A stretch of DNA of 64,000 bases from an uncultured Acidimicrobiia bacterium (GTDB lineage: Bacteria; Actinomycetota; Acidimicrobiia; Acidimicrobiales; AC-14), in contig CAWIIV010000015.1 of the NCBI GenBank assembly GCA_963836205.1, positions 1 to 64,000 of the forward strand. Direction: 5' to 3'. How positions within the stretch are numbered: position 1 is the first letter of the stretch; the number at the start of each line of letters is the position of its first letter. Positions 1 to 12,368 of this stretch are shown in pieces. Position numbers and translations under genes: made by a program. The notes under the pieces are model-generated. The model did not search any database and was not told where the DNA came from. It saw only the letters and a list, made by a program, of their open reading frames with translations.

Positions 1-167
1 GAGGTGAAGATGGCTCCAACCTCGATTCGAGGTTGGAGCCATCGTGCCGTAGCGGATCAGAATTGCGGGTCTGACCTACCCGATGTCGGCGGCGTTCGTT
101 ATCGTTTGGGCGAACCCGGCCAAAAGGGGGCGCCACGGCTGCGACGAGGCGGCGAAAGAGGGCGACG

Positions 168-3100
168 GTGCTGGCGGTCAGTGCCGATCGGTTCGCCGCG
201 GGTTGGCGCCTCGTTCCGGGATCCGGACTGGTCGAGGCGGGGGCGGTCGGGGCGGCGCCCGGCGAGGGGGCGGCGGGAGTCGAGGCGGACGCTTCCGCCA
301 TCACTGTCGACGTCGTCCGGCCGGCCGACCTCGTCGCCCTCTCGTTCACCGCCACCGGCTGCGAGTTGGTGTCGTCGGCCGACGCGCCCGTCCTCCGCCC
401 GGTGGCCGGGGCGACGGCCCGGCTGGTTGTCCGGTTCGCCTACCAGCACCTGGCCGAGGAGGCCATCTACGAGGGCCTGGCGCCCAAACCGCTCCCCTTC
501 CCGCCCGCGGTCCCCGGCGAGACCGGCAGTGAGATCCCCGACCCCGCGCCCGACCCCGCCGACCCCGTGAACGGGGAGGACGCCCGCACCGTCCCGCCGG
601 TGCAGGTCCTCCCGGCCAAGACCAGCCGGCTGGTGTTCGACATGCCCGAGGGCGAGAGCATCGAATTCTCCACCGCCGGCCTCCTCGCCGCCCTCGGCCG
701 CCTCCAGCTGGTCGTCCACCCCCTCGCCACCCCCGCCCCGACCACGCCGCCAGCGGTCGGGCCGGGCGTCGGTCCGATCCTGCAGCTGCCCGGGGGACTG
801 GCGGCCGTGATCTCCGACCGGGGTCCGGTCTTCTCCCGGGCCACCGGCGTCATGCGTCCACCCCGGATGGCCGACGTCGACAGCTTCCTCGCCACCACCC
901 GCGACCTGCGCCGGGTGCGGGCCCTGCTCACCACCACCACCGGCACCGTCGCCGGCCGCACCGTCGACCTGGGCTCCCTCGCCGACGTGGTGCTGCCGCC
1001 GATCATCGTCCGCCCCCGGCCCCGGCCCCGGCCGACGCTCAGCCGTCCCCCCGAGCCGGGGGAGACCGCGCTCGAGGCCCCCTTCCGCCTCGTCATCTCG
1101 CCCAGCCGCCTGGCCGGGTGGGCCCATGCCGCGGACCCGGTGCGCGCCGCCGATGCCCCCGGCCACGTCGAGCTGTGGCACACCCGCATGGGCGTCCGGG
1201 AGGAGCGCGCCGACGGCACCGTCGCGGTCGACGAGAGGTCGGACGCCCAGCGCACGGTGCGTGCCGTCTGGGCCCGCGACCGGGAGGGCATGGGCGCGTG
1301 GCAAACGCTCAAGGAGGCCGAGCACAACCAGCTCCCGTTCCGCATGTCGCTCGACGGGGCCGACCGCCACATGCTCGTGCGCCAGACGGCCGAGACCTGG
1401 GTGGGCCAGGCCGGCAAGCTGCTGACGCCCGAGCCCGTCGAGGCCCGCGAGCTGTGGCTGTCGGCCCTGGGCGCCTGGCTCGACCTCCATGGCGACTGGA
1501 CCACCGGGCCCTACTCGGCCGCGAGCATCGCCTCGATCCTGTCCTGGGACCACGAGGCCCCCGCCGGCCGCGACCAGTACGTGCGGGTCGTCTACCCCGG
1601 GTTCCTGTTCCCCTGCGGCCACCAGGCAGCCCTGGTGAAGCTCACCGAGCGCAAGATGAAGGACGTCAGCCCGTCGGTGGCGGGCCTGTACCAGCGCAAG
1701 TTCCTGGTCATCGGCCGGCCGCTGCTCACCTACGCCGACCAGCACAACCTTCCCTTCACCGCCATCCGGGTGGCGCCGCTCGTCACCCCCACGCTCGACG
1801 ACCCCGGCAACCTCCAGAACAGCTTCTTCTGGCCCCGGGTGGGCGGTGCCGACTTCCCCTTCGTGCTCCATTGCGCCGACCACGAGCACCGCCACGTGAA
1901 GCTGCCGACACCCCTGCTGTGGGTGGCCGAGCACTTCACGGCCAAGGCCGCCAACCGCAAGGCGGTGGAGGACGTGTACGCCGCGTCCGTACACCGGAAG
2001 GTGCCCGCCAACGGCCAGCAGATCGCGTTCGCCCCGGTCATCAAGGGTGGCGACACCACCAACGACACCGTGTCGGTCTCCCTCATGGGCACCGCCCACG
2101 CGCCGCCGGCCACGTCGACCCCCCGGATGACCCAGGCCCGGGTGAGGCTGCCGGCGGTGGAGCGGATCTCGGGTGTCGGTCCGGTGCCCGTGGCCTACGC
2201 CAAGCCGTACCTCGACTTCGGGTTCACCGGCGCCGGCAATCCCGGCCAGGTCTGGGCCGCGACGGTCACGTCCGACGCCCTCAAGCAGCTCCCCAACGAC
2301 GAGGTGGCCGCCCTCCCTGTCGTCAAGTTCGGCAACGGTGCACCGGCCGGCAGCGACCGTTCGGGCGGGTTCCTGTCGCCCGACCAGCCCGTCGCCGGCC
2401 TCTCCCGGCTCACGGGCACGGTCGGCGACGTGGCCGGCATGGCCACCCAGAAGTTCGACCCCAAGGAGTTCCTGAAGGGGGCGGTGCCCAAGCTGTTCGG
2501 GCTCGTCGACCTGCTCGACCTGCTCGACGCGGTGGGAGGGGTGGCGCCCAGCCTGGTCAACGAGGCGCTCGACCGGGCCGAGGGTTTCGTCGCCGACCTG
2601 CAGCGGGCCAAGCAGCAGGCAGCCGAGGCGGTCTCGGAGGCCAACAAGCTGGTGGCCCGGGCCGCGTCCAAGACGGCCGAGCTGCAGAACGCGGCCCAGG
2701 ACGCGCTGGCCAAGGCCCAGCAGGCCAAGACCGCGGTGGAGGGTGCGGTCGACGGGTTCATGAGCGTCCTGCCCACCCTGGTGGGCCAGACCGAGGCCGC
2801 GGTGGCGGCGGCCGTGGCCGCGCCGATCACCGCCCTCGAGGCCGCGGTCGGCAAGCTGGAGCAGGCCGCGCCCACCCTGCCGCCGCTCATCAGCAACCAG
2901 CTCACCGCCCTGGCCAAGGTGCTCCGCCAGGTGCTCGCCGCCGCCGACCTGGTCACCGACCTGGCCCGGCTGGTCAACGGGCTGGCCCAGTCGGGCGTCG
3001 AGTCCCACTTCCGCTTCGAGTGGAAGCCGAAGCTCCAGTCGTGGCCGTCGCCCGCCCATCCCTTCGGTTCGATCACGTCGCCGATCGTCGAGGTGAAGGT

Positions 3101-4022
3101 CGACAGCCTGGTCCTGGCCGTGGAGGGACGGGTCAGCGGCAAGGGCGAGGTCGGCGTCGAGATCCTGGCCGAGCTGAAGGACTTCACCCTCCACCTCCTG
3201 CCGGGCGCGCCCCTCATCCGCATCCCGTTCGACCACCTCTCGTTCCGGTCGGGCAGCGCGGGCAAGCCCGATGTCGACGTGGTCATGCACGAGATCGAGT
3301 TCGTCGGCGTCCTCGCCTTCGTGGAGACGCTGAAGGACCTGATCCCGTTCGACGGGTTCTCCGACCCGCCGTTCCTCGACGTCTCCCCGGCGGGGGTCAC
3401 CGCCGGCTTCACGCTCACCCTCCCGAGCGTGGCCATCGGCGTGTTCACCCTCGCCAACATCTCCCTGGGCGCCGACGTCAACGTGCCCTTCCTGGGCAAG
3501 ACCGTCACCGTCGGGTTCAACTTCTGCACCCGGGAGCGGCCCTTCACCCTCACGGTGATGGCGATCGGCGGTGGGGGCTGGTTCGGGATCCGCATCTCTC
3601 CCGACGGCCTCGACGTCATGGAGCTGGGGCTCGAGGCGGGGGCGTGCCTCGCCGTCGACCTGGGCGTGGCCTCCGGGTCGGTGTCGATCATGGTCGGGAT
3701 CTACATGCGGCTGGAGGGGCCCAGGGGCTCGCTCACCGGCTACGTGCGCATCCGGGGCGAGGTCGACGTGCTCGGCCTCATCTCGGCGTCGATCGAGCTC
3801 TACCTGGAGCTGCGCTACGAGTTCGACACCGGCAAGATGGTGGGCAAGGCCAGCCTCACCGTCCAGATCAAGGTGTTCGTGTTCTCCGGGTCGGTCAAGA
3901 TCGAGGTCGAGCGCAAGCTGGCGGGGTCGAACGGCGACCCCACCTTCGCCCAGGTCATGGACGTGCAGAACGGCCAGTCCGCGCCCTGGTCCGACTACTG
4001 CCTGGCCTTCGCGGGGGCGTGA
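168..4022 (+). CDS. Giant uncharacterised protein (1284 aa): beta-rich N-terminal part, Ala-rich helical/coiled-coil middle, long amphipathic beta-strand C-terminus
   Basis: Long ORF with strong GC3 bias and protein-like composition; stop overlaps GTG of next gene (GTGA 4019-4022); no catalytic motif recognised. Confidence 0.85.
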   Translation: MLAVSADRFAAGWRLVPGSGLVEAGAVGAAPGEGAAGVEADASAITVDVVRPADLVALSFTATGCELVSSADAPVLRPVAGATARLVVRFAYQHLAEEAIYEGLAPKPLPFPPAVPGETGSEIPDPAPDPADPVNGEDARTVPPVQVLPAKTSRLVFDMPEGESIEFSTAGLLAALGRLQLVVHPLATPAPTTPPAVGPGVGPILQLPGGLAAVISDRGPVFSRATGVMRPPRMADVDSFLATTRDLRRVRALLTTTTGTVAGRTVDLGSLADVVLPPIIVRPRPRPRPTLSRPPEPGETALEAPFRLVISPSRLAGWAHAADPVRAADAPGHVELWHTRMGVREERADGTVAVDERSDAQRTVRAVWARDREGMGAWQTLKEAEHNQLPFRMSLDGADRHMLVRQTAETWVGQAGKLLTPEPVEARELWLSALGAWLDLHGDWTTGPYSAASIASILSWDHEAPAGRDQYVRVVYPGFLFPCGHQAALVKLTERKMKDVSPSVAGLYQRKFLVIGRPLLTYADQHNLPFTAIRVAPLVTPTLDDPGNLQNSFFWPRVGGADFPFVLHCADHEHRHVKLPTPLLWVAEHFTAKAANRKAVEDVYAASVHRKVPANGQQIAFAPVIKGGDTTNDTVSVSLMGTAHAPPATSTPRMTQARVRLPAVERISGVGPVPVAYAKPYLDFGFTGAGNPGQVWAATVTSDALKQLPNDEVAALPVVKFGNGAPAGSDRSGGFLSPDQPVAGLSRLTGTVGDVAGMATQKFDPKEFLKGAVPKLFGLVDLLDLLDAVGGVAPSLVNEALDRAEGFVADLQRAKQQAAEAVSEANKLVARAASKTAELQNAAQDALAKAQQAKTAVEGAVDGFMSVLPTLVGQTEAAVAAAVAAPITALEAAVGKLEQAAPTLPPLISNQLTALAKVLRQVLAAADLVTDLARLVNGLAQSGVESHFRFEWKPKLQSWPSPAHPFGSITSPIVEVKVDSLVLAVEGRVSGKGEVGVEILAELKDFTLHLLPGAPLIRIPFDHLSFRSGSAGKPDVDVVMHEIEFVGVLAFVETLKDLIPFDGFSDPPFLDVSPAGVTAGFTLTLPSVAIGVFTLANISLGADVNVPFLGKTVTVGFNFCTRERPFTLTVMAIGGGGWFGIRISPDGLDVMELGLEAGACLAVDLGVASGSVSIMVGIYMRLEGPRGSLTGYVRIRGEVDVLGLISASIELYLELRYEFDTGKMVGKASLTVQIKVFVFSGSVKIEVERKLAGSNGDPTFAQVMDVQNGQSAPWSDYCLAFAGA

Positions 4023-7000
4023 CGGTGCCCGGCGAGGTCTTCACCGTCTGCGCCCTGCCGCACTCCTGCCGGCGGGGAGCCGAGTTCCACGTGTCGCTGT
4101 TCATCTCGCCCCGGCTCACACCGGGCTCGCCCCCAGGGGCGGGGAGGAGCTGCGCGAATACCGCCTGTTCCGCCGCTGGGCCACGACGCTGACCGACGAC
4201 ACCACCATCGAGCTGGGTGACCAGGGCGGGGTGATCGACTGCGAGCCCCTGCTGGCGGCGGTGCGGCCCGACGTGTGGGACGCCGCCTTCCCCGAGCGCA
4301 CCCCGGTGCGAGGCCAGCCCCTACCGGAGTGGGACCGCCGCCTGTGGCGCACCTTCCGGGCCGCGGAGGTGCACGACTGGGCCAAGGCGGCCCAGGCCAC
4401 CAGCGTGTTCACCGACCCGACCACGCCGCCCGCCCCCGGCGTCCACCCCCTCGTGAAGATGATGACCGGCCTCACCGCGGAGTGGTACCGCTGGGTCGTC
4501 ACCGCCGGCGGGCGGCGGCGGGTCTACGACGAGTCGATCGGCACCGAGGACTTCGACAACCTGCTCGAGGGCGGCGAGTCGCTGGCGATCATCGAGCGAG
4601 TCATCGCCGGCGAGCGCGACCCGCTGCGGCGGATACTGCTTGAGCTGCACCGGGCCCGCCGCTTCTACGAGCGGCCCGAGTCGGAGCAGGAATATCACGA
4701 ACGTCCAGTACCCGGCCGCAAGAGCCCGAGGCCGCCGCGGCCCGAGCCCGACTTCCACGAGCGGTGCACGCTCGCCGGCGACCACCCGGCCCTCCTCCGT
4801 GCCCTCGGCCTGGTCGTCGACCTGGTCGTCGCCGATCCCGACCGGCTGCGGCAGTCGTCGTGGCTCTCGGCCCGGCTCACCGTCGACGGTGACGACGGCC
4901 CCTGCCTGTCCACCAAGACCTCGTGCCACGCCTTCGGCGACGACCTGGTCACGATCCCGGAGACCGCCGAGTGGGTCCAGGGACTCCTGGCCGTGGGCAA
5001 CGCCGACCTGTTCGCCCTCCTCGACATGGAGGCCGACGGGGCCGCCCTCAAGATGGAGCGCTGGCTGTGGACCCTGCCCCGCCTGCTGGCCATCGAGCAG
5101 AACGGCAACCCGGTCGACGCCGCCACCCCGGCGCAACGCTCCACCGGCTTCACCGTCGTCCGCAACTTCCAGGCGCTCGACGTCCAGGCCCGAATGACCC
5201 GCCAGCGCGACCTGCTGGGTGTCGTCGAGGCGGGAGGCGATCACCGACTGGGCAGCGAGGACGTGGCCCGGGGGATGCGGGTGGAGGCGTGGGACGACAC
5301 CGCCGGGCGCTGGTTCAGCCTCCACTCCCGCCTGATCGACGTGGTGGTCGACGGTGTCGGCACCGTCATCGACGACGCCGCCGAGGAGGGGTTCGTCCAG
5401 GGGACGCCGGCGAGCGAGACCTCGGGGGTTCCCGACAGCCCGGTCCACGTCCACGAGGCCGTGTTCGGGTGGGAGGGCTGGAGCCTGTCCGCGCCCAGGC
5501 CGGGGAAGCGGGTGCGCCACGAGGACGGCGACGAGGTGGTGGAGGACCCCACGGCCACCCCCGACGAGGTCACGCCCGTGGTCATCACGGCCACGGTCGC
5601 TCCCCGGACGCTGCCGAGGCTCCGGTTCGGCCGGTCGTACGCCTTCCGGGCCTGGCTCGTCGACCTGGCCGGCAACGTCCGCCCCCACGGCCTCAACCCC
5701 CCGGCACCGGCGCCGTCCTCCGTGCAGCAGGTGCTCGCGGCCCGGCTGGCCACCGCCGGGGTCGACCCCGCGGTCGAACCCGGCTTGGTGGTACCGGGCG
5801 TCGCCCACCTGCGGGCCGAGACCCATGCCGGGCTGGAGGCCCGCCGGCTGACCGGTGCGGGTGCCGGGGCGACGGACGACGCCGACGGGTTGGGCGGGGT
5901 GGCCGTGGGCCCGAACGTGGGCGGGGTGACCATCGACCGGTTCGTCGCCGGCGGACTCGTCGGCGCCCCGGATGCGGCCGGGCTGGCGGCGGACGACGTC
6001 CGGCTCGCCGATCCCTCCGTCACGGCCGCGTCGGTGGCGGGGCGGCTGCGGGCCCGCCGGGCGGAGCGGGCAGTGGGCGGGGACGCACCGCCCAGGCAGT
6101 CGTTCGTGAACCGGTCCTCGCTCGTGGCCCAGGCCTTCGCCCGGGCCGTCGGCGACCCCCGCCAGCCGTTCGTGGCGTCGACGGTGGCCATCCGGCCGGA
6201 GGCGGTGGCGCCGGTGGTGTCCAGCCACCTGCCCCACGTGCCGGGGCCGGTGGCGGCGGCCGGGATCGACCTGGAGGCCGCTCTCGCCACCATCACCCCC
6301 CTGCGGCCCTTCCTGCGCTGGGACCCGGTGCCCAGCCCCGCCATCGTCCCCCTCCGGCGGTTCACCGAGGGCGAGTCGCTGCGGGTGCTGGTCGTGCGGT
6401 CGGGCGTCGCCCAGGACCCGGCCACGCTCGCTCTCACCGTCACCCCACCCGACGAGTACGCCGCCGCCGCGGCCGCCGCCCATCCCGCGCTCGACCTGGG
6501 CTATGGCGACGTCAACGAGCGACACCTGGCGCCGCCCAAGACCAGCCAGTTCCAGGCTGAGTTGCACGGCGCGTTCGACGACGCCATCGGGTCCGTCAAC
6601 CCCGCCGACCACGTTCGCCTGCTGGCGGTGGCGATGCGGGAAGCGGGAACGTTCTTCGACCTCGACGTCGTCGACCTCACCGACCCGACCACCACCGTCC
6701 CACAGCCGGGAGTCCGGCTCGAAACCAGCCCGGGGCCGCCCCAGGTCGACCCGAAGACCCTTCCCCTGGCCCCGGGAGACGCGCCCGCGCCCGGCCAGTA
6801 CGTCGTCCACGACACGCCCCAGCTCCGGCTGCCCTACCTGCCCGACACCCTCGCCCGAGGTGTTTCCCTCGCCTTCCCCGACGCCGGCACCGACCGCCGC
6901 ATCCCGTTCCCGTTCGGGGGCGAGGGGTGCACCGCCACCTACGGCGGCAGCGACGCCTGGCCCGAGATCGAACCGTTCCGACTCGTGCTCGCGGGGGCGG

Positions 7001-8757
7001 CCGAGCTGTCGGGCCGGGTCGACGGGACCGTGATCACGATCGATCTCCCGCCCGGTGACCAGCTCCGATTCCGCCTCGCCAGCTCCCTGACCAGGCCCGA
7101 TCTCGACCTCATGGGGCCGTGGCGCAACCTCCCGGCGACGGTGCGGTCGGATCCCGACGTGGTCGAGGCCGCCGTCGACGGTTGGCTGTGGGCCCTCACC
7201 CCCTACGAGAACGTGATCCTCATCCACGCCGTCCCCCGCCCCCTGGAAGCGCCCCGCCCGACGGTCGTCACGCCGTCCCGCCAGCTCGGCTCCACCGAGT
7301 GCACGCTCATCGGGGCGGTCGACCTCCACGGCCCGAGCACCGACAGCCTCACCGCCGAGGCCACGTGGGTGGAGCCGGTCGACGAGGTGACCCTGCTCAC
7401 CGGGCCCGAGGAGCATCCCCAGCAGGCGGTGGCGTTCACCTCGCCCGTCCAGCCCTTCGAGGACCTCGCCATCCTCTGGCCGACCGACGTCGAAGCCACG
7501 ATCGAGAACTTCGGCAAGGTCCGGGGCCACCGGGCGGTGCACCAGTTCGGCGACACCCACCACCGGCGGGTCGACTACCGGTTCCGGGCCTCCACCAGAT
7601 TCCGTGAGTTCTTCCATCCCGACCTGGTGGCGCCCGACCCGGCCGTCCCCGGCGACGACGGCCGGAGCGTGGTCGGGCCGGTGGTGAAGGTGTCGGTGCC
7701 GAGCAGCGCCCGGCCGGCGGCGCCGGTGGTGCACTCGGTCCTGCCCCTGTTCCGCTGGACCGACGGCATCGAGCCCGAGCAGCCCTTCGCCCGCCGCCGG
7801 GTCCGGCGGGCCGGAGTCCGCATCTACATGGAGCGGCCGTGGTTCTCGTCCGGCCAGGACGAGCTGCTGGGCGTCCTGCTGGCCGTCAACGGCAACGACT
7901 CGTTCGGACCGCCGCCGCCCGACCAGTCCGGCTTCCCGTTCGTGAGCAAGTGGGGTGGCGACCCGGCGTGGCTGGGCGCCCCGGTACCCAACCGGGCCAT
8001 GACGCCCCTCTTCCTCGACAGCCTGATGGCCGGCCTCACCTTCGACGACCGTCACCATCCGGCCCGCCCAGTCACCCAGGCCCGCACCCTGCCCCTGTCC
8101 GCTGTCGCTGGCGCGCCGAACGTGCAGGTGGCGGGCTACAAGCCGCAGTACAACCACGACCGCAACCTCTGGTACGTCGACATCGCCATCGACGCGGGCG
8201 ACACCTACTGGCCGTTCGTCCGACTGGCCGTCGCCCGCTACCAGCCGGAGAGCCTCGACACCTGCCACCTGTCGGCCCCCGTCCGCTGCGACTTCGTGCA
8301 GCTGGCGCCGACCCGCACCACGAGCGTGAGCCGCACCGACGACCGCCACGTGCGGGTCGTGGTCAGCGGACCGATCGGGGTGCGCTCGAAGCGGTTCCCC
8401 GATTCGGTCGACACCCTGGCCGCGCTGGTCGCCCCCAACCACCAGGTCGTGGCCCGGCTGCAACGGCGTGATCCCACGATCCCCACCGACCTGGGCTGGG
8501 AGACGGTGGCGGCCGGCGAGCTCACGGTCAGGGGAAGGGGCGAAGGCTCACCCGACTTCGAGGTCGCGTGGGTGGGCGCCCTGGAGGCGCCGGAGACGAT
8601 CCCCCTCGGCCGACCCGGGTCGAACCCCGACTGGCGGGTGACGGTGGAGGAGTGGGAGATGCTGCCCGGCGACCCCTTCACCCTCGGCCCCACGCGAGGC
8701 CGCCTGCCACCCGTCTGGGAACGCCGCCTGGTCTACGCCGACGAGGTCGAGCTCTAG
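4019..8757 (+). CDS. Giant uncharacterised protein (~1580 aa), apparent 1-nt frameshift near 4141-4144
   Basis: N-terminus VTVPGEVFTVCALPHS...FHVSLFISPRLTPG lies in the frame of ORF 1118..4192; the rest (EELREYRLF... to YADEVEL) lies in ORF 3571..8757; adding one G to the G-run joins them. Confidence 0.8.
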
Positions 8758-8798
8758 CCCAGCAGCTTGACCCGAGCAGCTTGGCCCGAGCAGCTTGG
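8758..8798. repeat. Three tandem copies of a ~14-bp unit (CCCGAGCAGCTTGG)
   Basis: cccagcagcttga / cccgagcagcttgg / cccgagcagcttgg directly after the stop codon. Confidence 0.8.
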
Positions 8799-8829
8799 GT
8801 AGCGGGGGAGGAGCGACACCTCACCGCCC

Positions 8830-8989
8830 GACCCGACCCCTCGGGTAAGGGTAGGCGAAGGGCTGTCAGCTCTACCGAAGTATGCGGTCTGCACCATTGT
8901 CGGAAATGCCGGAAAAGACAATTCTCTCCTTGACAACAGCCGCCGACAAAGCGAGGTGGCCAAAAAAGGACAAGAGGAAAGAACCGACA
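8830..8989 (+). promoter_or_regulatory. Conserved upstream regulatory/leader region, copy 1
   Basis: Blocks GGGCTGTCAGCTCTA, GAAGTATGCGGTC, CACCATTG, TCCTTGACAACAGCCGCCGA and AAAGCGAGGTGGC recur at 11735-11888. Confidence 0.75.
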
Positions 8990-9464
8990 ATGAGCAAGAA
9001 CGCGACCATCAAGCGTGCATCCCGGCTCGGACTGGCAGCGGCCGCCCTGGCGACTGCAACCATGCTCGGCGCGAGCGTCGCCCCCGCCCACGCCGGCCTC
9101 GACGACCTGTGCATCCCCGGGCCCACGCCGAGCATCATCCCCGTCGATATCGTGACCTACGAGGACCTCGGTGTCGAGCAGATGACCGTGCGCCTGTCCA
9201 GGCCCGCCTGCTGGCAGGTGACCGTGCACTACGCCACCCAGGGCATCACGGCCACCCAGGCCCACGACTACAAGGGAACCTCCGGTTTCGTGGTCTTCCC
9301 GCCCAACTCCACCATCAGGACGCTCCCCGTCACCATCCTCGACGACCCCTGGGTCGAGCAGCCGGAGATCGTGGCTGTGAACTTCCAACGCCCCCTTCGG
9401 TGCCACCCTCCCCGACAAGGTCGGGCTCATGACGATCCTGGACGGGTCCCCGACTCCTGGGTGA
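8990..9464 (+). CDS. Secreted Calx-beta-like protein, copy 1 (extra C in the C-run 9391-9395)
   Basis: Signal peptide ending APAHA; VxVHYAT..TA...DY..TSG.V.F.P.....LPVTILDD..VE..E Calx-beta pattern; removing one C gives ...FGATLPDKVGLMTILDGSPTPG*, collinear with the paralog at 11889. Confidence 0.75.
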
Positions 9465-9491
9465 TCCAACCCTGCACAGCCGGGCAACGCC

Positions 9492-9536
9492 AGCCGGCCG
9501 GAGAGACGACGAGGTCTCTCCGGCCGGTTTCCTTTT
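9492..9536 (+). terminator. Intrinsic terminator
   Basis: GCCGGCCGGAGAGAC...GTCTCTCCGGCCGGT stem followed by TTCCTTTT. Confidence 0.75.
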
Positions 9537-9785
9537 GTGGCGTCACGGAACTCGACGTCGGCCTATTCCCCGCTCGCATATCCGGCGATTTGATTTGCTC
9601 TCCGCCTCGTTCTCCGTCACGCAGGAGAAGAAGCATCCGCCGGTGGACGAGAAGGGTCGAACGCATCGGCGCCAACAGGGCAGCCTCGTCGGAGAGCGTC
9701 GAGGTGCGGACCCGCCGCGGCCACCGAACCTCCCCGGCCCCGGGATGAAGCCGACGGCCGGGTCCGGTGCCATCATGCGTCTGGC

Positions 9786-10472
9786 ATGGGCGAGCGGTTG
9801 CGGGCGGTGCTGGCGGAGGACAACCTCCTCGTGCGGCAGGGTTTGTGCAGCCTGCTCGCCATCTCCGGCGAGGTCGACGTGCTGGCCGCGTGCTCCTCGC
9901 TGCCCAAACTGCTCGAGGCGGTCGACGCCCACCAACCCGACGTGGTCCTCACCGACATCCGCATGCCGCCCGGCTTCTCCGACGAGGGCATCCAGGCCGC
10001 CCGGCTGCTGCGCGAGAGCCACCCCACCCTGGGCGTGGTCGTCATCTCCCAGTTCGCCGACCCCAGCTACGCCATGGCCGTGCTCGGCGACGGTTCGAAC
10101 GGCCGGGCCTACATCCTGAAGGACCGGGTCCACGACCTCGACCGCCTGCTCCGAGCCATCCGAGCGGTCGTCGCCGGCGACTCCTTCGTCGACGAGGAGA
10201 TCGTGGCCGCCCTGGTGCAGTCGCACGCCCGGCTGGGCGAGGGCCCCACCGACTCGCTCACCGACCGCGAGCGGGAGGTCCTGGCCGAGGTGGCCACCGG
10301 CGCCAGCAACGCGTCGATCGCGGAGTCGCTCGGCGTCTCCGGCCACGCGGTGGAGAAGCACATCAACTCCATCTTCTCCAAGCTCGGGCTGTCGGGCAGC
10401 CCGTCGGTGAACCGGCGGGTGCAGGCGGTGCTCGTCCACCTCCAGAGCCAGCCCCGTGGCGACCAGCGCTAG
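9786..10472 (+). CDS. NarL/LuxR-family response regulator
   Basis: AEDN, DVVLTDIRMPP receiver domain; LTDREREVL...SNASIA...VEKHINSIFSKL HTH. Confidence 0.93.
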   Translation: MGERLRAVLAEDNLLVRQGLCSLLAISGEVDVLAACSSLPKLLEAVDAHQPDVVLTDIRMPPGFSDEGIQAARLLRESHPTLGVVVISQFADPSYAMAVLGDGSNGRAYILKDRVHDLDRLLRAIRAVVAGDSFVDEEIVAALVQSHARLGEGPTDSLTDREREVLAEVATGASNASIAESLGVSGHAVEKHINSIFSKLGLSGSPSVNRRVQAVLVHLQSQPRGDQR

Positions 10473-11735
10473 CCCCGACGCCGAGGTCGCCACCGACCTC
10501 TCCCGCCTGCGGACCTTCGTCGTGGCCGACTTCCTCGCCGCCATGGGCGGGGTGGCCTTCATCCTGGTGGTGTGGCTGACGGTGCTCCGGTCGGGCTGGT
10601 TGCTCGTGCTGGCGCTGATCACGGCGACCACCGGGGGCATCATGCTGCTCGGCCTGGGACCGCTGCGCCGGGGCCGGGTGGAGCCGGCAGTGGCCTGGCT
10701 TGCCGTCGCCAACTGGTGCAGCGCCCTGTCGATGACGGCCATCGCCAGCTTCGCCTGGCCCATCCTCGTCTTCGCCGCGGTGCTGCCGGCCGTGTTCTCG
10801 GTGCCCTACGTGTCACGGAAGTCGCTGCACCGCTATCTGGCCGTCTCGCTGGCGGTCGCCACCGCGGTGGCCGCCCTGGGCGTGCTCCAGGACGTGACCG
10901 GGTTCACCAACCGGGCCCCACAGTGGGTGAAGGAGGCGGTGCTCATCACCTTCGTCCCGGCCATGGCCGCCCTCCTCGTCGAGTTGTCCCTGGCCAGCCG
11001 CGCTCACCTGCAGCGGCTGCTCGACGCCGCGCTGGGCGCGGTCGCCGATCTCCGCCGCTCGGAGACGGCGCTGGCCGAGTCGGTCGCCGAGCTGCAGGCG
11101 TCCCGCGCGCGGTGGTGGCCGCGACCGACGAGGAACGCCGCCGGATCGCCCGCGACCTGCACGACGGGTCACAGCAGCGGCTGACTGCGTTGGGGCTCAA
11201 CCTGTCCGTCGTCCGGGAGCTGCTACGCCGGTCCCCGGACGAGGCGGCTGACGCGCTGACCGCCCTGCGCGGCTCGGTCACCGAAGCCCAGGCCGACCTC
11301 CGGGCTGTCGTCCACGGGATCTACCCGCCCGCGCTCACCGAGCACGGCGTGGTGATGGCCCTCGGTACGGCCACCACCCAGTCGCCCAACACCGTGCGCC
11401 TGGTGGCCGATGGCGTTGGGCGCCACCCGCCCGACGTGGAGGCGGCCGTCTACTTCTGCTGCACCGAGGCCCTCCAGAACGCGGCCAAGCACGCCGGTCC
11501 TAATGCCACCGTGCGGGTGACGCTGGCCGAGAAGGAGCCCGGCTGGCTCGAGTTCGAGGTGCGGGACGACGGGCGCGGGTTCGACCCGGCTGCCACTTCA
11601 GGCGGAGGCGGCTTCGTCAACATGCGGGACCGGGTGGGCGCCCTCGGGGGAGAGCTGCGCGTGGTCAGCTCGCCCGGGGGAGGCACCGTGGTCCGGGGCC
11701 TGGTGCCGGCGGCACCCCGGCCCCTGCCGGCCTGA
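10456..11735 (+). CDS. Membrane sensor histidine kinase (HisKA_3 type), apparent frameshift near 11110
   Basis: Multi-TM N-terminus in ORF 10456..11184; ERRRIARDLHDG, EALQNAAKHA and DDGRGF in ORF 10572..11735; one missing G in cgg-gtg joins them. Confidence 0.85.
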
Positions 11736-11888: not shown

Positions 11889-12368
11889 ATGAACAAGAAC
11901 TTGACCATCACGCGTGCATCCCGCCTCGGCCTGGCGGCGGCGGCCGTGGCCGTGGCCGCTGGCAGCATGCTCGGCGCAGGCGTCGCCCCCGCCCACGCCG
12001 GACCGACCCTTGGTTGCATCCCCGCCCCGAGCATCACCATCCACGACGAGGCCGGCTGGGAGCTGAACGGATCCGTCGTCCCCACGGTGAGCCTGTCGAA
12101 GAAGGCCTGCTGGCTGGTGAAGGTGCACTTCGCCACCAACGACGGGACGGCCAAGAAGAGCGCCGGCGACTACCCGGGCACCAGCGGTGACCTGGTCTTC
12201 CAGCCCGGCACCACCCACCTGCAGCTCCCAGTCACGATCTTCGACGACGGCCTGGGCGACTCGGGGGAGACGTTCAGCGTCAACCTCAGCGGCCCCTCGG
12301 GCGCCACCATCGCCGACAGTGTCGGCATCATGACCATCCTGGAAGGCGAGCCGCCCACCCCCGGGTAA
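11889..12368 (+). CDS. Secreted Calx-beta-like protein, copy 2
   Basis: Signal peptide ending APAHA; VKVHFATNDGTA...DY...SGDLVFQPG...VTIFDD...ETFSVNLS.PSGATI. Confidence 0.85.
   Translation: MNKNLTITRASRLGLAAAAVAVAAGSMLGAGVAPAHAGPTLGCIPAPSITIHDEAGWELNGSVVPTVSLSKKACWLVKVHFATNDGTAKKSAGDYPGTSGDLVFQPGTTHLQLPVTIFDDGLGDSGETFSVNLSGPSGATIADSVGIMTILEGEPPTPG

What the first reader, a model, noticed from the sequence alone, without database searches (positions are those of the whole stretch)
168..8757. Translationally coupled pair of giant proteins with no recognisable domain
8.6 kb holds two genes (1284 and ~1580 aa) joined by a GTGA overlap, with no signal peptide, TM helix or enzyme motif that I can recognise. 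Protein 1 has an Ala/Leu/Gln apolipoprotein-like helical run (about nt 2560-2990) and a C-terminal ~300 aa of continuous amphipathic beta strands. Protein 2 has conserved-looking blocks (GWEGWSL, LPRLRFGRSYAFRA, RFREFF, WYVDI...PFVRLAVARYQP) separated by low-complexity inserts. Inference: a stoichiometric two-subunit machine, e.g. a toxin/pore complex, a beta-groove lipid-transfer bridge, or cargo of a contractile or secretion system.
Basis: partly seen in the sequence, partly recalled or inferred. Interest (0 to 1): 0.75.

Follow-up and report, generated by a model that had tools for sequence, protein, structure and literature searches.

The report
Paired giant proteins of unknown function
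Two very large neighbouring genes belong to a huge, unnamed, always-paired protein family that in many bacteria carries an export signal on the first partner only, so the pair probably works as one complex at the cell envelope, although what it does is still unknown.

Summary
The two giant genes are real, but the observation needs one correction. P1 is window 168-4022 (1284 aa). P2 starts at the GTGA overlap (4019). In the window copy its frame breaks after about 41 codons, at a G-run (4141-4144) that is one G short. An overlapping contig (C16, 99.68% identical) carries the intact 1579-aa gene, which matches all homologs.

Neither protein matches Pfam, NCBIfam, PADLOC, PHROGs or PDB sequences.

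Structure predictions:
- P1 has a confident beta-rich core, a four-helix bundle and about 17 amphipathic beta strands resembling part of a membrane barrel.
- P2 (pLDDT 87.5) shows only Ig/FN3-like sandwiches; no larger fold match was found.

The P1 family is very large (5116 clusters at 50% identity). P2 follows P1 directly in 72 of 72 and 50 of 51 evaluable loci. No third gene is conserved.

In other branches P1 carries a twin-arginine (Tat) signal, sometimes with a lipobox, or LysM/Big_2/lectin-like modules. The partner P2 never carries a signal (0 of 27).

Best reading: an obligate two-subunit complex that interacts with a membrane or cell surface outside the cytoplasm. The window's own clade lacks any signal, so its location is open. 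Function remains unproven. No defence-island enrichment was seen.

The parts
12..43 (.). Perfect inverted repeat (hairpin) between the upstream RTX-repeat gene, which lies on contig C16, and P1. It is probably the upstream gene's terminator and marks the 5' limit of the module.
   Evidence: Sequence read; reverse self-match of 9-43; the upstream gene ends about 39 nt before window position 1.
168..4022 (+). P1, 1284 aa. GTG start with a GAGGG Shine-Dalgarno-like stretch 8-14 nt upstream. No in-frame start lies further upstream.
   Evidence: GC3 0.96; 735 homologs at E<=1e-3, the 120 best listed all near full length.
1500..2342 (+). P1 conserved beta-rich core (aa ~445-725). This is the best-predicted part of P1 (pLDDT mostly above 90). 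No fold match was obtained for it.
   Evidence: the fold searches were dominated by other parts of the model.
2574..2975 (+). P1 helical bundle (aa 803-936), Ala/Leu/Gln-rich. Its length varies across the superfamily: it is absent in one relative and expanded by hundreds of residues in others.
   Evidence: AF2 helices; VIA Z 12.8, rmsd 2.0, 108 aligned to a four-helix bundle, a generic match; variable length.
2997..3920 (+). P1 C-terminal beta domain (aa 944-1251). It has about 20 strands, the last six strongly amphipathic. It is the most conserved stretch of P1 (GGGGW, RGEVDVLG motifs) but has low pLDDT (30-70).
   Evidence: resembles part of membrane beta-barrels (TamA Z 10.7 rmsd 4.9 124 aligned; BamA Z 10.3 rmsd 3.3 118 aligned).
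4019..4022 (+). GTGA start/stop overlap of P2 with P1.
   Evidence: P2 begins 0-40 nt after P1 in most loci.
4019..4192 (+). P2 N-terminal reading frame as it stands in the window. The true P2 sequence runs for about 41 codons, then the frame is lost and a stop follows at 4190-4192.
   Evidence: residues 1-44 match at 4019-4150.
4141..4144 (+). G-run with 4 G in the window and 5 G in contig C16. This is the frameshift site of P2.
   Evidence: one contig of run X1 also has the extra G.
4145..8757 (+). Remainder of P2, in the frame of ORF 3571-8757. The intact protein is 1579 aa (C16 copy, P0123).
5695..6297 (+). P2 variable, partly low-complexity insert (aa ~560-760). It is longer here than in most homologs.
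   Evidence: Alignment; AF2 pLDDT below 50 at aa 615-666.
9492..9529 (+). Strong terminator-like hairpin (16 pairs followed by a T-run). It lies after the small Calx-beta gene that follows P2 and may mark the end of the transcription unit in this genome.
   Evidence: the Calx-beta gene is 193 aa in the C16 copy and ends just before the hairpin.

Best explanation
P1 and P2 are the two subunits of one obligate complex. They belong to a very large, horizontally spread superfamily that no curated library covers.

Shown:
- The two genes are always adjacent and usually overlap or nearly touch.
- No other gene is conserved beside them.
- P1 combines a beta-rich core, a helical bundle of variable length and a highly conserved amphipathic beta sheet that resembles a piece of a membrane barrel.
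- P2 is a compact multi-domain body in which only Ig/FN3-like sandwiches are recognisable.
- In many other branches P1, and never P2, carries a twin-arginine signal. Several of these signals end in a lipobox.
- Other P1 relatives carry LysM, Big_2, LRR-like or lectin-propeller-like N-terminal modules.

Inferred:
- The pair assembles in the cytoplasm. In the signal-bearing branches it is exported folded by Tat, with P2 riding on P1's signal.
- It then works outside the cytoplasm, at the membrane or cell surface. P1's bundle and amphipathic sheet would be the membrane- or lipid-contacting part, and P2 a rigid binding scaffold.
- Whether the outcome is envelope maintenance, lipid handling or damage to another cell's membrane cannot be decided here.

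The window's own clade has no signal on either protein, so it either stays inside the cell or leaves by another route. The window copy of P2 is frameshifted, by an assembly error or a real strain variant.
For: Pairing:
- 72 of 72 evaluable genome loci.
- 50 of 51 evaluable metagenome loci.
- Distant 33-45% identical relatives are also paired.
- Adjacent locus tags in 4 named genomes.
- No conserved third gene: the best neighbour cluster covers 10 of 74 loci and 10 of 80 loci, each from one lineage.

Size and spread:
- 5116 representatives at E<=1e-3 and 2755 at E<=1e-30.
- 328 species genomes across several phyla.
- Patchy among relatives: 8 of 41 genomes, one of them (G015) flagged unpublished.

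Export signals:
- 32 of 69 P1-like ORFs with their own start have (S/T)RRxFL in the first 110 aa.
- 0 of 27 partner P2 proteins have it, and they begin directly at the conserved N-terminal strand.
- 24 of 149 top representatives have the motif, about 21 with a hydrophobic region and several with a lipobox cysteine.

Accessory modules:
- LysM (P0287) and Big_2 (P0379) by Pfam.
- Propeller-like and LRR-like repeats seen by eye.

Structure.

Background on Tat export of heterodimers in which only one partner carries the signal: abstracts of PMC10924467 and PMC4273604 (search listing).
Against: - The window's own clade shows no genuine Tat or Sec signal. Only 1 of 81 homologs with the N-terminal landmark matches the motif, and that one has no hydrophobic region. 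The extracytoplasmic reading is therefore borrowed from other branches.
- No physical interaction was demonstrated, and no P1-P2 fusion was found among 9 longer relatives.
- The barrel-like sheet has low model confidence (pLDDT 30-70), and Z of about 10 with rmsd 3-6 A can reflect only a common arrangement.
- The Tat motifs were found by a simple pattern, not by a trained predictor, and some start codons are uncertain.
- The P1 core, the P1 N-terminal 285 aa and P2 aa 1201-1579 were never tested as separate folds, so an enzyme domain could be hidden there.
Confidence: 0.4

Rival explanations
1. A released two-component toxin that damages membranes of other organisms, such as predators or competitors. 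P1's bundle and amphipathic hairpins would rearrange into a pore and P2 would bind the target surface. The signal-less clade would be released by lysis or a dedicated release route, as some large toxins are (the last point is recalled, not tested).
For: - Amphipathic, barrel-like C-terminal sheet with low model confidence, as expected for a segment that changes shape.
- Lectin-propeller-like, LysM, Big_2 and LRR-like N-terminal modules in relatives.
- No adjacent immunity-like gene, which would fit a non-bacterial target.
- Patchy, horizontally spread distribution with decaying copies.
Against: - No match to any toxin family in Pfam or in PDB sequences.
- Several relatives look like Tat lipoproteins, that is, anchored to the producer's own membrane, which is unusual for a released toxin.
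- The putative pore segment is the most conserved part of the protein.
- No release or secretion genes are conserved nearby.
Confidence: 0.2
2. An intracellular anti-phage (abortive infection) pair. P2 would be a large sensor and P1 a membrane-disrupting effector.
For: - No signal peptide in the window's clade.
- Patchy distribution and horizontal spread.
- Some loci lie beside clear defence genes: IetA/IetS in L074, JetD in L078, DpdF in L075, a CBASS-type phospholipase in L077, TIR in L043 and L051.
Against: - Neighbours are not enriched for PADLOC hits. 15 of 133 neighbour ORFs hit at E<=1e-5 and 6 of 133 at E<=1e-20. In arbitrary stretches of the own genome the figures are 14 of 121 and 7 of 121.
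- There are no PADLOC hits for P1 or P2.
- Tat signals, lipoboxes and LysM/Big_2 modules in relatives point outside the cytoplasm.
- 50-77% identity across phyla is high for a defence gene.
Confidence: 0.1
3. A cytoplasmic assembly, either a scaffold or an enzyme whose active site sits in a part that was not fold-tested. The Tat-bearing branches would then be secondary adaptations.
For: - No export signal in 81 of 81 close homologs carrying the N-terminal landmark.
- 44 of 81 have an Arg/Lys-rich leader instead.
- There are many invariant His/Arg/Asp/Glu residues in P2: H211 R212 R214 R215 E221, R835 H836 E848, H1171 D1179 H1182.
- Large parts were not tested as single domains.
Against: - No enzyme family was detected by sequence profiles or by the fold searches that were run.
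- The recognisable P2 domains are Ig/FN3-like, which are commoner outside the cytoplasm (recalled).
- Accessory domains of relatives are cell-surface types.
Confidence: 0.15
4. In this particular strain the pair is a dead gene remnant, because the P2 frameshift is real.
For: - The window reads 4 G where 5 are needed.
- The two overlapping contigs differ mostly by synonymous changes (12 synonymous against 8 non-synonymous codon differences). They therefore look like two real strains rather than random errors.
- Relatives in the same genus carry broken copies.
Against: - The indel lies in a homopolymer at a contig end.
- A second indel in the same window copy makes the downstream Calx-beta ORF read through a terminator-like hairpin, which suggests consensus errors.
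- Downstream of the shift the P2 frame is open for 1538 codons with GC3 0.91.
- The C16 allele and the only environmental contig covering the site are intact.
Confidence: 0.25

Closest known systems
Tat-exported heteromers with a signal on one subunit ('hitchhiker' export, e.g. E. coli PaoABC; abstract of PMC4273604, and the general statement in the abstract of PMC10924467)
   Same: In many branches only the first of two adjacent, co-translated genes carries a twin-arginine signal, and its partner has none (32 of 69 against 0 of 27).
   Different: Known cases are mostly cofactor-containing redox enzymes of modest size. Here there is no cofactor motif or enzyme family, the pair would total about 3000 residues, and the window's own clade has no signal at all. 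Export was not tested.
Beta-pore-forming and binary toxins, including lectin-fused haemolysins (recalled class)
   Same: Amphipathic beta hairpins long enough to span a membrane, a helical bundle, carbohydrate- or surface-binding modules fused in relatives, and two co-encoded components.
   Different: No sequence match to any toxin family, and no fold match beyond generic hits to the helical bundle. The candidate membrane segment is extremely conserved. Several relatives look like lipoproteins.
Tc toxin complexes (TcA/TcB/TcC)
   Same: Giant, co-encoded subunits without classical signal peptides; beta-rich shells.
   Different: No RHS/YD, SpvB or TcdB-mid domains at Pfam E<=1. Tc chains are not among the fold matches listed. 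The system has two genes rather than three, and a different size pattern.
AsmA/TamB/VPS13-type beta-groove lipid bridges and large lipid transfer proteins (MTP/lipovitellin)
   Same: Long amphipathic beta sheet plus helices. Foldseek's top P1 row is MTP (E 7.2e-6).
   Different: TM-score 0.08 and rmsd 38 A for that row. MTP and lipovitellin are absent from the 50 best VIA rows. No AsmA/DUF490/Vitellogenin_N Pfam hit. No N-terminal anchor in the window protein.

Membership tests
Tc toxin complex | RHS/YD repeats, SpvB or TcdB-mid domains detectable by Pfam | tested here: not met
   No such family at E<=1 for P1 or P2.
Tc toxin complex | TcB/TcC beta-cocoon or TcA shell fold | tested here: inconclusive
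   Not among the rows listed by Foldseek or VIA. The models were large multi-domain pieces, and P2 aa 1201-1579 was not modelled.
AsmA/TamB/VPS13 lipid-transfer bridges | AsmA/DUF490-type sequence family and an N-terminal membrane anchor | tested here: not met
   No Pfam hit. No anchor: the top 19-aa hydropathy window of 1.8 lies in the C-terminal beta region.
AsmA/TamB/VPS13 lipid-transfer bridges | Continuous open beta-groove fold | tested here: inconclusive
   The C-terminal sheet matches closed-barrel proteins at Z about 10. The groove geometry could not be inspected, and pLDDT there is 30-70.
Large lipid transfer proteins (MTP/lipovitellin) | Vitellogenin_N-type beta-barrel, helical domain and lipid-cavity sheets | tested here: inconclusive
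   Foldseek E 7.2e-6 but TM 0.08 and rmsd 38 A. Not in the 50 best VIA rows. No Pfam hit.
Outer-membrane beta-barrel proteins (porins, Omp85) | Sec signal peptide and a C-terminal aromatic beta-signal | tested here: not met
   No signal peptide. The protein ends ...CLAFAGA. Relatives use Tat signals, which folded-protein export implies.
Outer-membrane beta-barrel proteins (porins, Omp85) | Closed transmembrane barrel | tested here: inconclusive
   Only about 110-125 residues align to part of a barrel (TamA Z 10.7 rmsd 4.9; BamA Z 10.3 rmsd 3.3).
Tat substrates (window protein itself) | N-terminal (S/T)RRxFLK motif followed by a hydrophobic region | tested here: not met
   Absent in window P1 and P2, and no upstream in-frame start exists. 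Only 1 of 81 close homologs matches the motif, and it has no hydrophobic region.
Tat substrates (other branches of the superfamily) | N-terminal (S/T)RRxFLK motif followed by a hydrophobic region, on one partner only | tested here: met
   32 of 69 P1-like ORFs against 0 of 27 partner P2. 24 of 149 representatives, several with a lipobox. This is pattern-based; export itself is not testable here.
Known anti-phage defence systems (PADLOC) | Match to a defence protein model, and location in defence islands | tested here: not met
   The best hit is ZorA at E 0.3. Neighbour hit rate is 15 of 133 against 14 of 121 in the control.
DUF6603 (PF20248) | Sequence or profile similarity to the domain | tested here: not met
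   No Pfam hit. hhalign probability below 1%. hmmsearch of the P1 and P2 profiles found nothing in DUF6603 loci. Only a language-model score of 0.77 pointed there.
Phage tail / contractile injection system parts | PHROGs or viral-structure match, and conserved tail-gene neighbours | tested here: not met
   PHROGs E>=0.14. BFVD has no row at E<=1e-3 for P2; the P1 model was not searched there. No conserved neighbours.

The most novel reading that the evidence does not exclude
The pair defines a previously undescribed class of giant two-subunit machines that interact with membranes or cell surfaces. It is present in thousands of sequence clusters across bacterial phyla. It would be exported folded through Tat, with the second subunit riding on the first one's signal. 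The P2 architecture has no solved relative, and P1 may store a membrane-inserting beta sheet in a soluble form.
Probability: 0.3. Interest if true: 0.8.

Novelty: categorically new. Interest (0 to 1): 0.66.

Why it matters
P1 belongs to a family of more than five thousand 50%-identity clusters. It is always paired with a partner of about 1500 residues, yet neither has a Pfam, NCBIfam, PADLOC or PHROGs model or a relative in PDB sequences. I found no paper on it in the three searches made.

If the Tat reading holds, these would be among the largest folded cargos proposed for that pathway, and a clean natural case of partner co-export.

If the C-terminal sheet of P1 contacts or enters membranes, the pair would add a new kind of membrane-active protein in soil and groundwater bacteria.

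The work here turns 'two big hypothetical genes' into testable statements: the proteins co-purify, export depends on the RR motif, and the C-terminal domain binds lipid.

Tried and rejected
- Complex prediction of P1 aa 945-1284 with P2 aa 1200-1579: score 0.00, no verdict. It counts neither for nor against binding, and the choice of domains was a guess.
- RNA evidence: no RNA holder is listed for window 3800-4500, and the best DNA share is 0.13.
- DUF6603 lead from the language-model atlas: not supported.
- The atlas lead 'peptidoglycan-binding protein' for P2 (score 0.76) could not be followed up.
- P1-P2 fusion proteins: none among the 9 longer relatives found. They are P1-type proteins with expanded helical middles. 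This is weak evidence, because word-based candidate picking can miss relatives.
- Defence-island enrichment: none against a control from the own genome. The control comes from one genome only and happened to include one island-like stretch (L091).
- Conserved neighbours: none. The immediate neighbours are heterogeneous.
- Viral structure library for P2: no row at E<=1e-3.
- PDB sequence profiles: only coiled-coil noise for P1 and nothing for P2.
- MTP/lipovitellin likeness: not upheld by VIA.
- RTX and Calx-beta neighbours as module parts: rejected, because they are not conserved in other loci.
- Literature: 'DUF6603' gave 0 papers. A search for giant proteins / gene pair / Actinobacteria gave nothing relevant in the listing.


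Full report
**What is in the window**

The window is the first 64 kb of contig C15 of a 4.05-Mb, 25-contig, ~72% GC assembly.

A 1284-aa ORF (P1) runs from a GTG at 168 to a TGA at 4020-4022. Its GC3 is 0.96. A GTG at 4019 overlaps that stop, giving GTGA.

The frame that opens at 4019 closes at 4192. The long ORF that reaches 8757 is in another frame and formally starts at 3571, inside P1.

The first 10,032 bases of C15 overlap the reverse complement of the first 10,031 bases of contig C16. Identity is 99.68%, with 29 mismatches and 3 single-base indels. One indel sits in the G-run at 4141-4144: four G in the window, five in C16.

With five G, the gene starting at the GTGA overlap is open for 1579 codons (P0123). 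Its N-terminus (M..E.F.VCALPHS....FHVSLF.SP) is conserved in all 25 aligned homologs. Database homologs cover 100% of this intact form.

The window copy itself is frameshifted.

- The codon differences between the two copies are 12 synonymous against 8 non-synonymous. That looks like two real strains.
- The shift lies in a homopolymer at a contig end. Another indel of the window copy makes the next gene read through a terminator-like hairpin.
- The only environmental contig covering the site (run X1, 78 nt) has the extra G.
- I cannot decide between an assembly error and a real strain variant.

**No known family**

P1 and P2 give nothing significant in any library:
- Pfam: best E 0.09.
- NCBIfam: none.
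- PADLOC: best E 0.3.
- PHROGs: best E 0.14.

Profiles of 25 homologs each against all PDB sequences give only coiled-coil noise over P1 aa 790-950 and nothing for P2.

**Predicted structures**

P1 aa 286-1284 was folded with 61 sequences, giving pLDDT 70.8 and pTM 0.57.
- aa ~445-725 form a confident beta-rich core.
- aa 803-936 form a helical bundle.
- aa 944-1251 form about 20 beta strands with low confidence (30-70), although this is the most conserved stretch of the protein.

P2 aa 1-1200 was folded with 66 sequences, giving pLDDT 87.5 and pTM 0.87. It is a compact multi-domain body with a disordered insert at 615-666.

Fold searches for P1:
- Foldseek against PDB lists MTP first (E 7.2e-6), but with TM 0.08 and rmsd 38 A. 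S-layer SbsC, lipovitellin and porins follow.
- VIA-align finds a generic four-helix bundle (Z 12.8, rmsd 2.0, 108 aligned).
- For model residues ~797-967 it finds parts of membrane barrels: KdgM Z 10.6, BamA Z 10.3 (rmsd 3.3, 118 aligned), TamA Z 10.7.
- MTP and lipovitellin are not among the 50 best VIA rows.

Fold searches for P2:
- No Foldseek row reaches E<=1e-3 in PDB or in the viral library.
- The best VIA Z is 5.5. All rows are Ig/FN3-type sandwiches around residues 4-306, 313-770 and 1072-1197.

The P1 core, P1 aa 1-285 and P2 aa 1201-1579 were not tested as separate folds.

In the 17 C-terminal strands tested, the alternating-residue hydrophobicity contrast averages z +1.69 against within-strand shuffles, with 9 of 17 at z>2. 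The last six strands score 2.07-3.83. The 15 core strands average +0.17, with 2 of 15 at z>2.

**An obligate pair and nothing else**

- P1 has 735 and P2 has 490 relatives at E<=1e-3 in the word-indexed collection. Identity is 50-77% across Actinomycetota, Lysobacter, Burkholderiales, Sphingomonas, Verrucomicrobiota and others, and all are unnamed.
- In one genome per species, 328 species encode a P1 relative. 74 loci were kept.
- P2 lies directly downstream on the same strand in 72 of them. The other two contigs end at the P1 stop.
- Relatives at 33-45% identity in neighbouring genera show the same order. Some are split or decayed.
- In 80 metagenome loci seeded from a distant branch, 50 of 51 evaluable loci are paired. 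Of the other 29, 23 have P1 within 500 nt of the contig end and 6 had no P1 ORF called by my script.
- No neighbouring gene is conserved beyond single lineages: the best clusters cover 10 of 74 and 10 of 80 loci.
- The RTX-repeat and Calx-beta proteins that flank the pair here are therefore local neighbours, not parts of the module.

A profile of P1 aa 286-1284 from 55 sequences, scored against 1.84 billion representatives, finds 5116 proteins at E<=1e-3 and 2755 at E<=1e-30. This is a very large family with no curated model.

**Clues from other branches**

Of 25 long relatives, Pfam finds a LysM domain in one N-terminal extension (P0287) and a Big_2 domain in another (P0379), and no surface-type module in the other 23. 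One more relative gave only weak hits, below Pfam's cut-offs, in its helical part. By eye, the extensions also show propeller-like repeats of the PLL/tectonin kind and LRR-like repeats (labels recalled).

Many relatives carry a twin-arginine signal:
- 32 of 69 P1-like ORFs with their own start in the metagenome loci match the motif, for example ..LSRRKFLSYAGILGATPV...
- 24 of 149 top representatives match. About 21 have a hydrophobic region, and several end in a lipobox cysteine such as LTGC, LTAC or LGGC.
- None of the 27 partner P2 proteins has the motif. They start directly at the conserved first strand.

Tat exports folded proteins, and some substrates leave as heterodimers with the signal on one partner (abstracts of PMC10924467 and PMC4273604, seen in the listing). 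A signal on P1 only is what one expects if P1 and P2 assemble before export.

In the window's own clade the picture differs. Of 81 homologs that carry the N-terminal RFAAGW landmark, one matches the motif, and it has no hydrophobic region. 44 have an Arg/Lys-rich leader instead. The window P1 has no leader at all and no upstream start.

**Mechanism**

Shown:
- obligate adjacency with start/stop overlap;
- the domain anatomy described above;
- the distribution of signal motifs and accessory modules.

Inferred:
- The two proteins form one complex.
- In the signal-bearing branches it is exported by Tat with P2 as passenger. It then acts at the outer face of the membrane or at the cell surface.
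- P1's bundle and amphipathic sheet contact a membrane or lipid, and P2 serves as a rigid Ig/FN3-rich scaffold.

I put 0.4 on this reading. The exact output is open: envelope upkeep or lipid handling, damage to another cell's membrane, or something else. The signal-less clade in the window may behave differently.

**Rivals**

- Released pore-forming toxin (0.2). It fits the lectin-like fusions and the lack of an immunity gene. It fits poorly with lipoprotein-type relatives and with the extreme conservation of the putative pore segment.
- Intracellular anti-phage pair (0.1). Some loci sit beside IetAS, JetD, DpdF, a CBASS-type phospholipase or TIR genes. But the PADLOC hit rate among 133 sampled neighbours (15 at E<=1e-5, 6 at E<=1e-20) equals that of 121 ORFs from arbitrary stretches of the own genome (14 and 7).
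- Cytoplasmic scaffold or hidden enzyme (0.15). This cannot be excluded, because large parts were not fold-tested.
- Separately, the window copy may be a real pseudogene (0.25).

**Comparison with what is known**

The nearest functional analogy is Tat export of a heteromer on one partner's signal. The nearest structural analogies are amphipathic beta-sheet proteins: barrels, beta-pore formers and lipid-groove proteins.

It was either not met or inconclusive (see the membership table).

I found no paper on this family: 'DUF6603' gave 0 papers, and a search for giant proteins and gene pairs gave nothing relevant in the listing. Supplementary files were not consulted.

**Verdict**

The finding is real and interesting, with one correction (the frameshift in the window copy) and one extension (the size of the superfamily and the Tat signal on P1 only). 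Function is unproven.

One count, 8 of 41 related genomes with a match, includes genome G015, which is flagged unpublished.

Noticed in passing
window 1-10032 and contig C16 1-10031 (L009): The two contig ends overlap in reverse complement at 99.68% identity (29 mismatches, 3 indels). Codon differences are mostly synonymous, so the assembly seems to hold two close strains that were not merged.
   Followed up: partly
window 8882-9748 (C16 copy: L009:569-1150:-): A small Calx-beta protein with a signal peptide follows P2. In the C16 copy it is 193 aa and ends just before a strong terminator-like hairpin (9492-9529). In the window copy a 1-base insertion at about 9382 makes the ORF 288 aa long and reads through the hairpin.
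   Followed up: partly
L009:10070-10870:- (just upstream of window position 1): A 266-aa protein with four RTX calcium-binding repeats and a twin-arginine-like leader (RRARRAFLAG...). The Kdp potassium-pump genes (KdpA, a KdpB-like P-type ATPase) and the KdpD/response-regulator pair lie further upstream.
   Followed up: no
window 11889-12368: A second small Calx-beta protein lies after a LuxR-type response regulator (9786-10472) and a histidine kinase (10572-11735). Calcium-binding secreted proteins cluster around this locus.
   Followed up: no
L088 (G028:C31:8000-26000) and L090 (G013:C266): DUF6603 genes sit in rows of giant ORFs (1040, 1186, 1096 and 1926 aa in L088) with overlapping starts and stops. 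The two downstream giants have no Pfam family. This is another uncharacterised giant-gene cluster, not detectably related to P1 or P2.
   Followed up: partly
P1 homologs (alignment A1, columns 1-50): About half of the close homologs (44 of 81) begin with an Arg/Lys-rich leader of 10-45 residues with no hydrophobic stretch. The window protein lacks it. Its role is unknown.
   Followed up: partly
L137:7757-8704, L137:17854-19809, L167:4670-6544, L167:18291-20390: In two low-GC metagenome loci the pair is flanked on both sides by secreted proteins that share an N-terminal motif (..QPPPNQLKVADLW..LIN..). They are not seen elsewhere.
   Followed up: no
L091 (G000:C6:100001-120000): This control stretch of the own genome holds a group II intron-type reverse transcriptase. 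It also holds two ORFs matching the N- and C-terminal ends of PADLOC Orf5/HEC-06 models, which may be a split defence gene.
   Followed up: no
L104 (G006:C6) and L105 (G007:C90): Same-genus relatives carry divergent copies of the pair that are broken into several ORFs. This suggests decay of the module in this lineage.
   Followed up: partly
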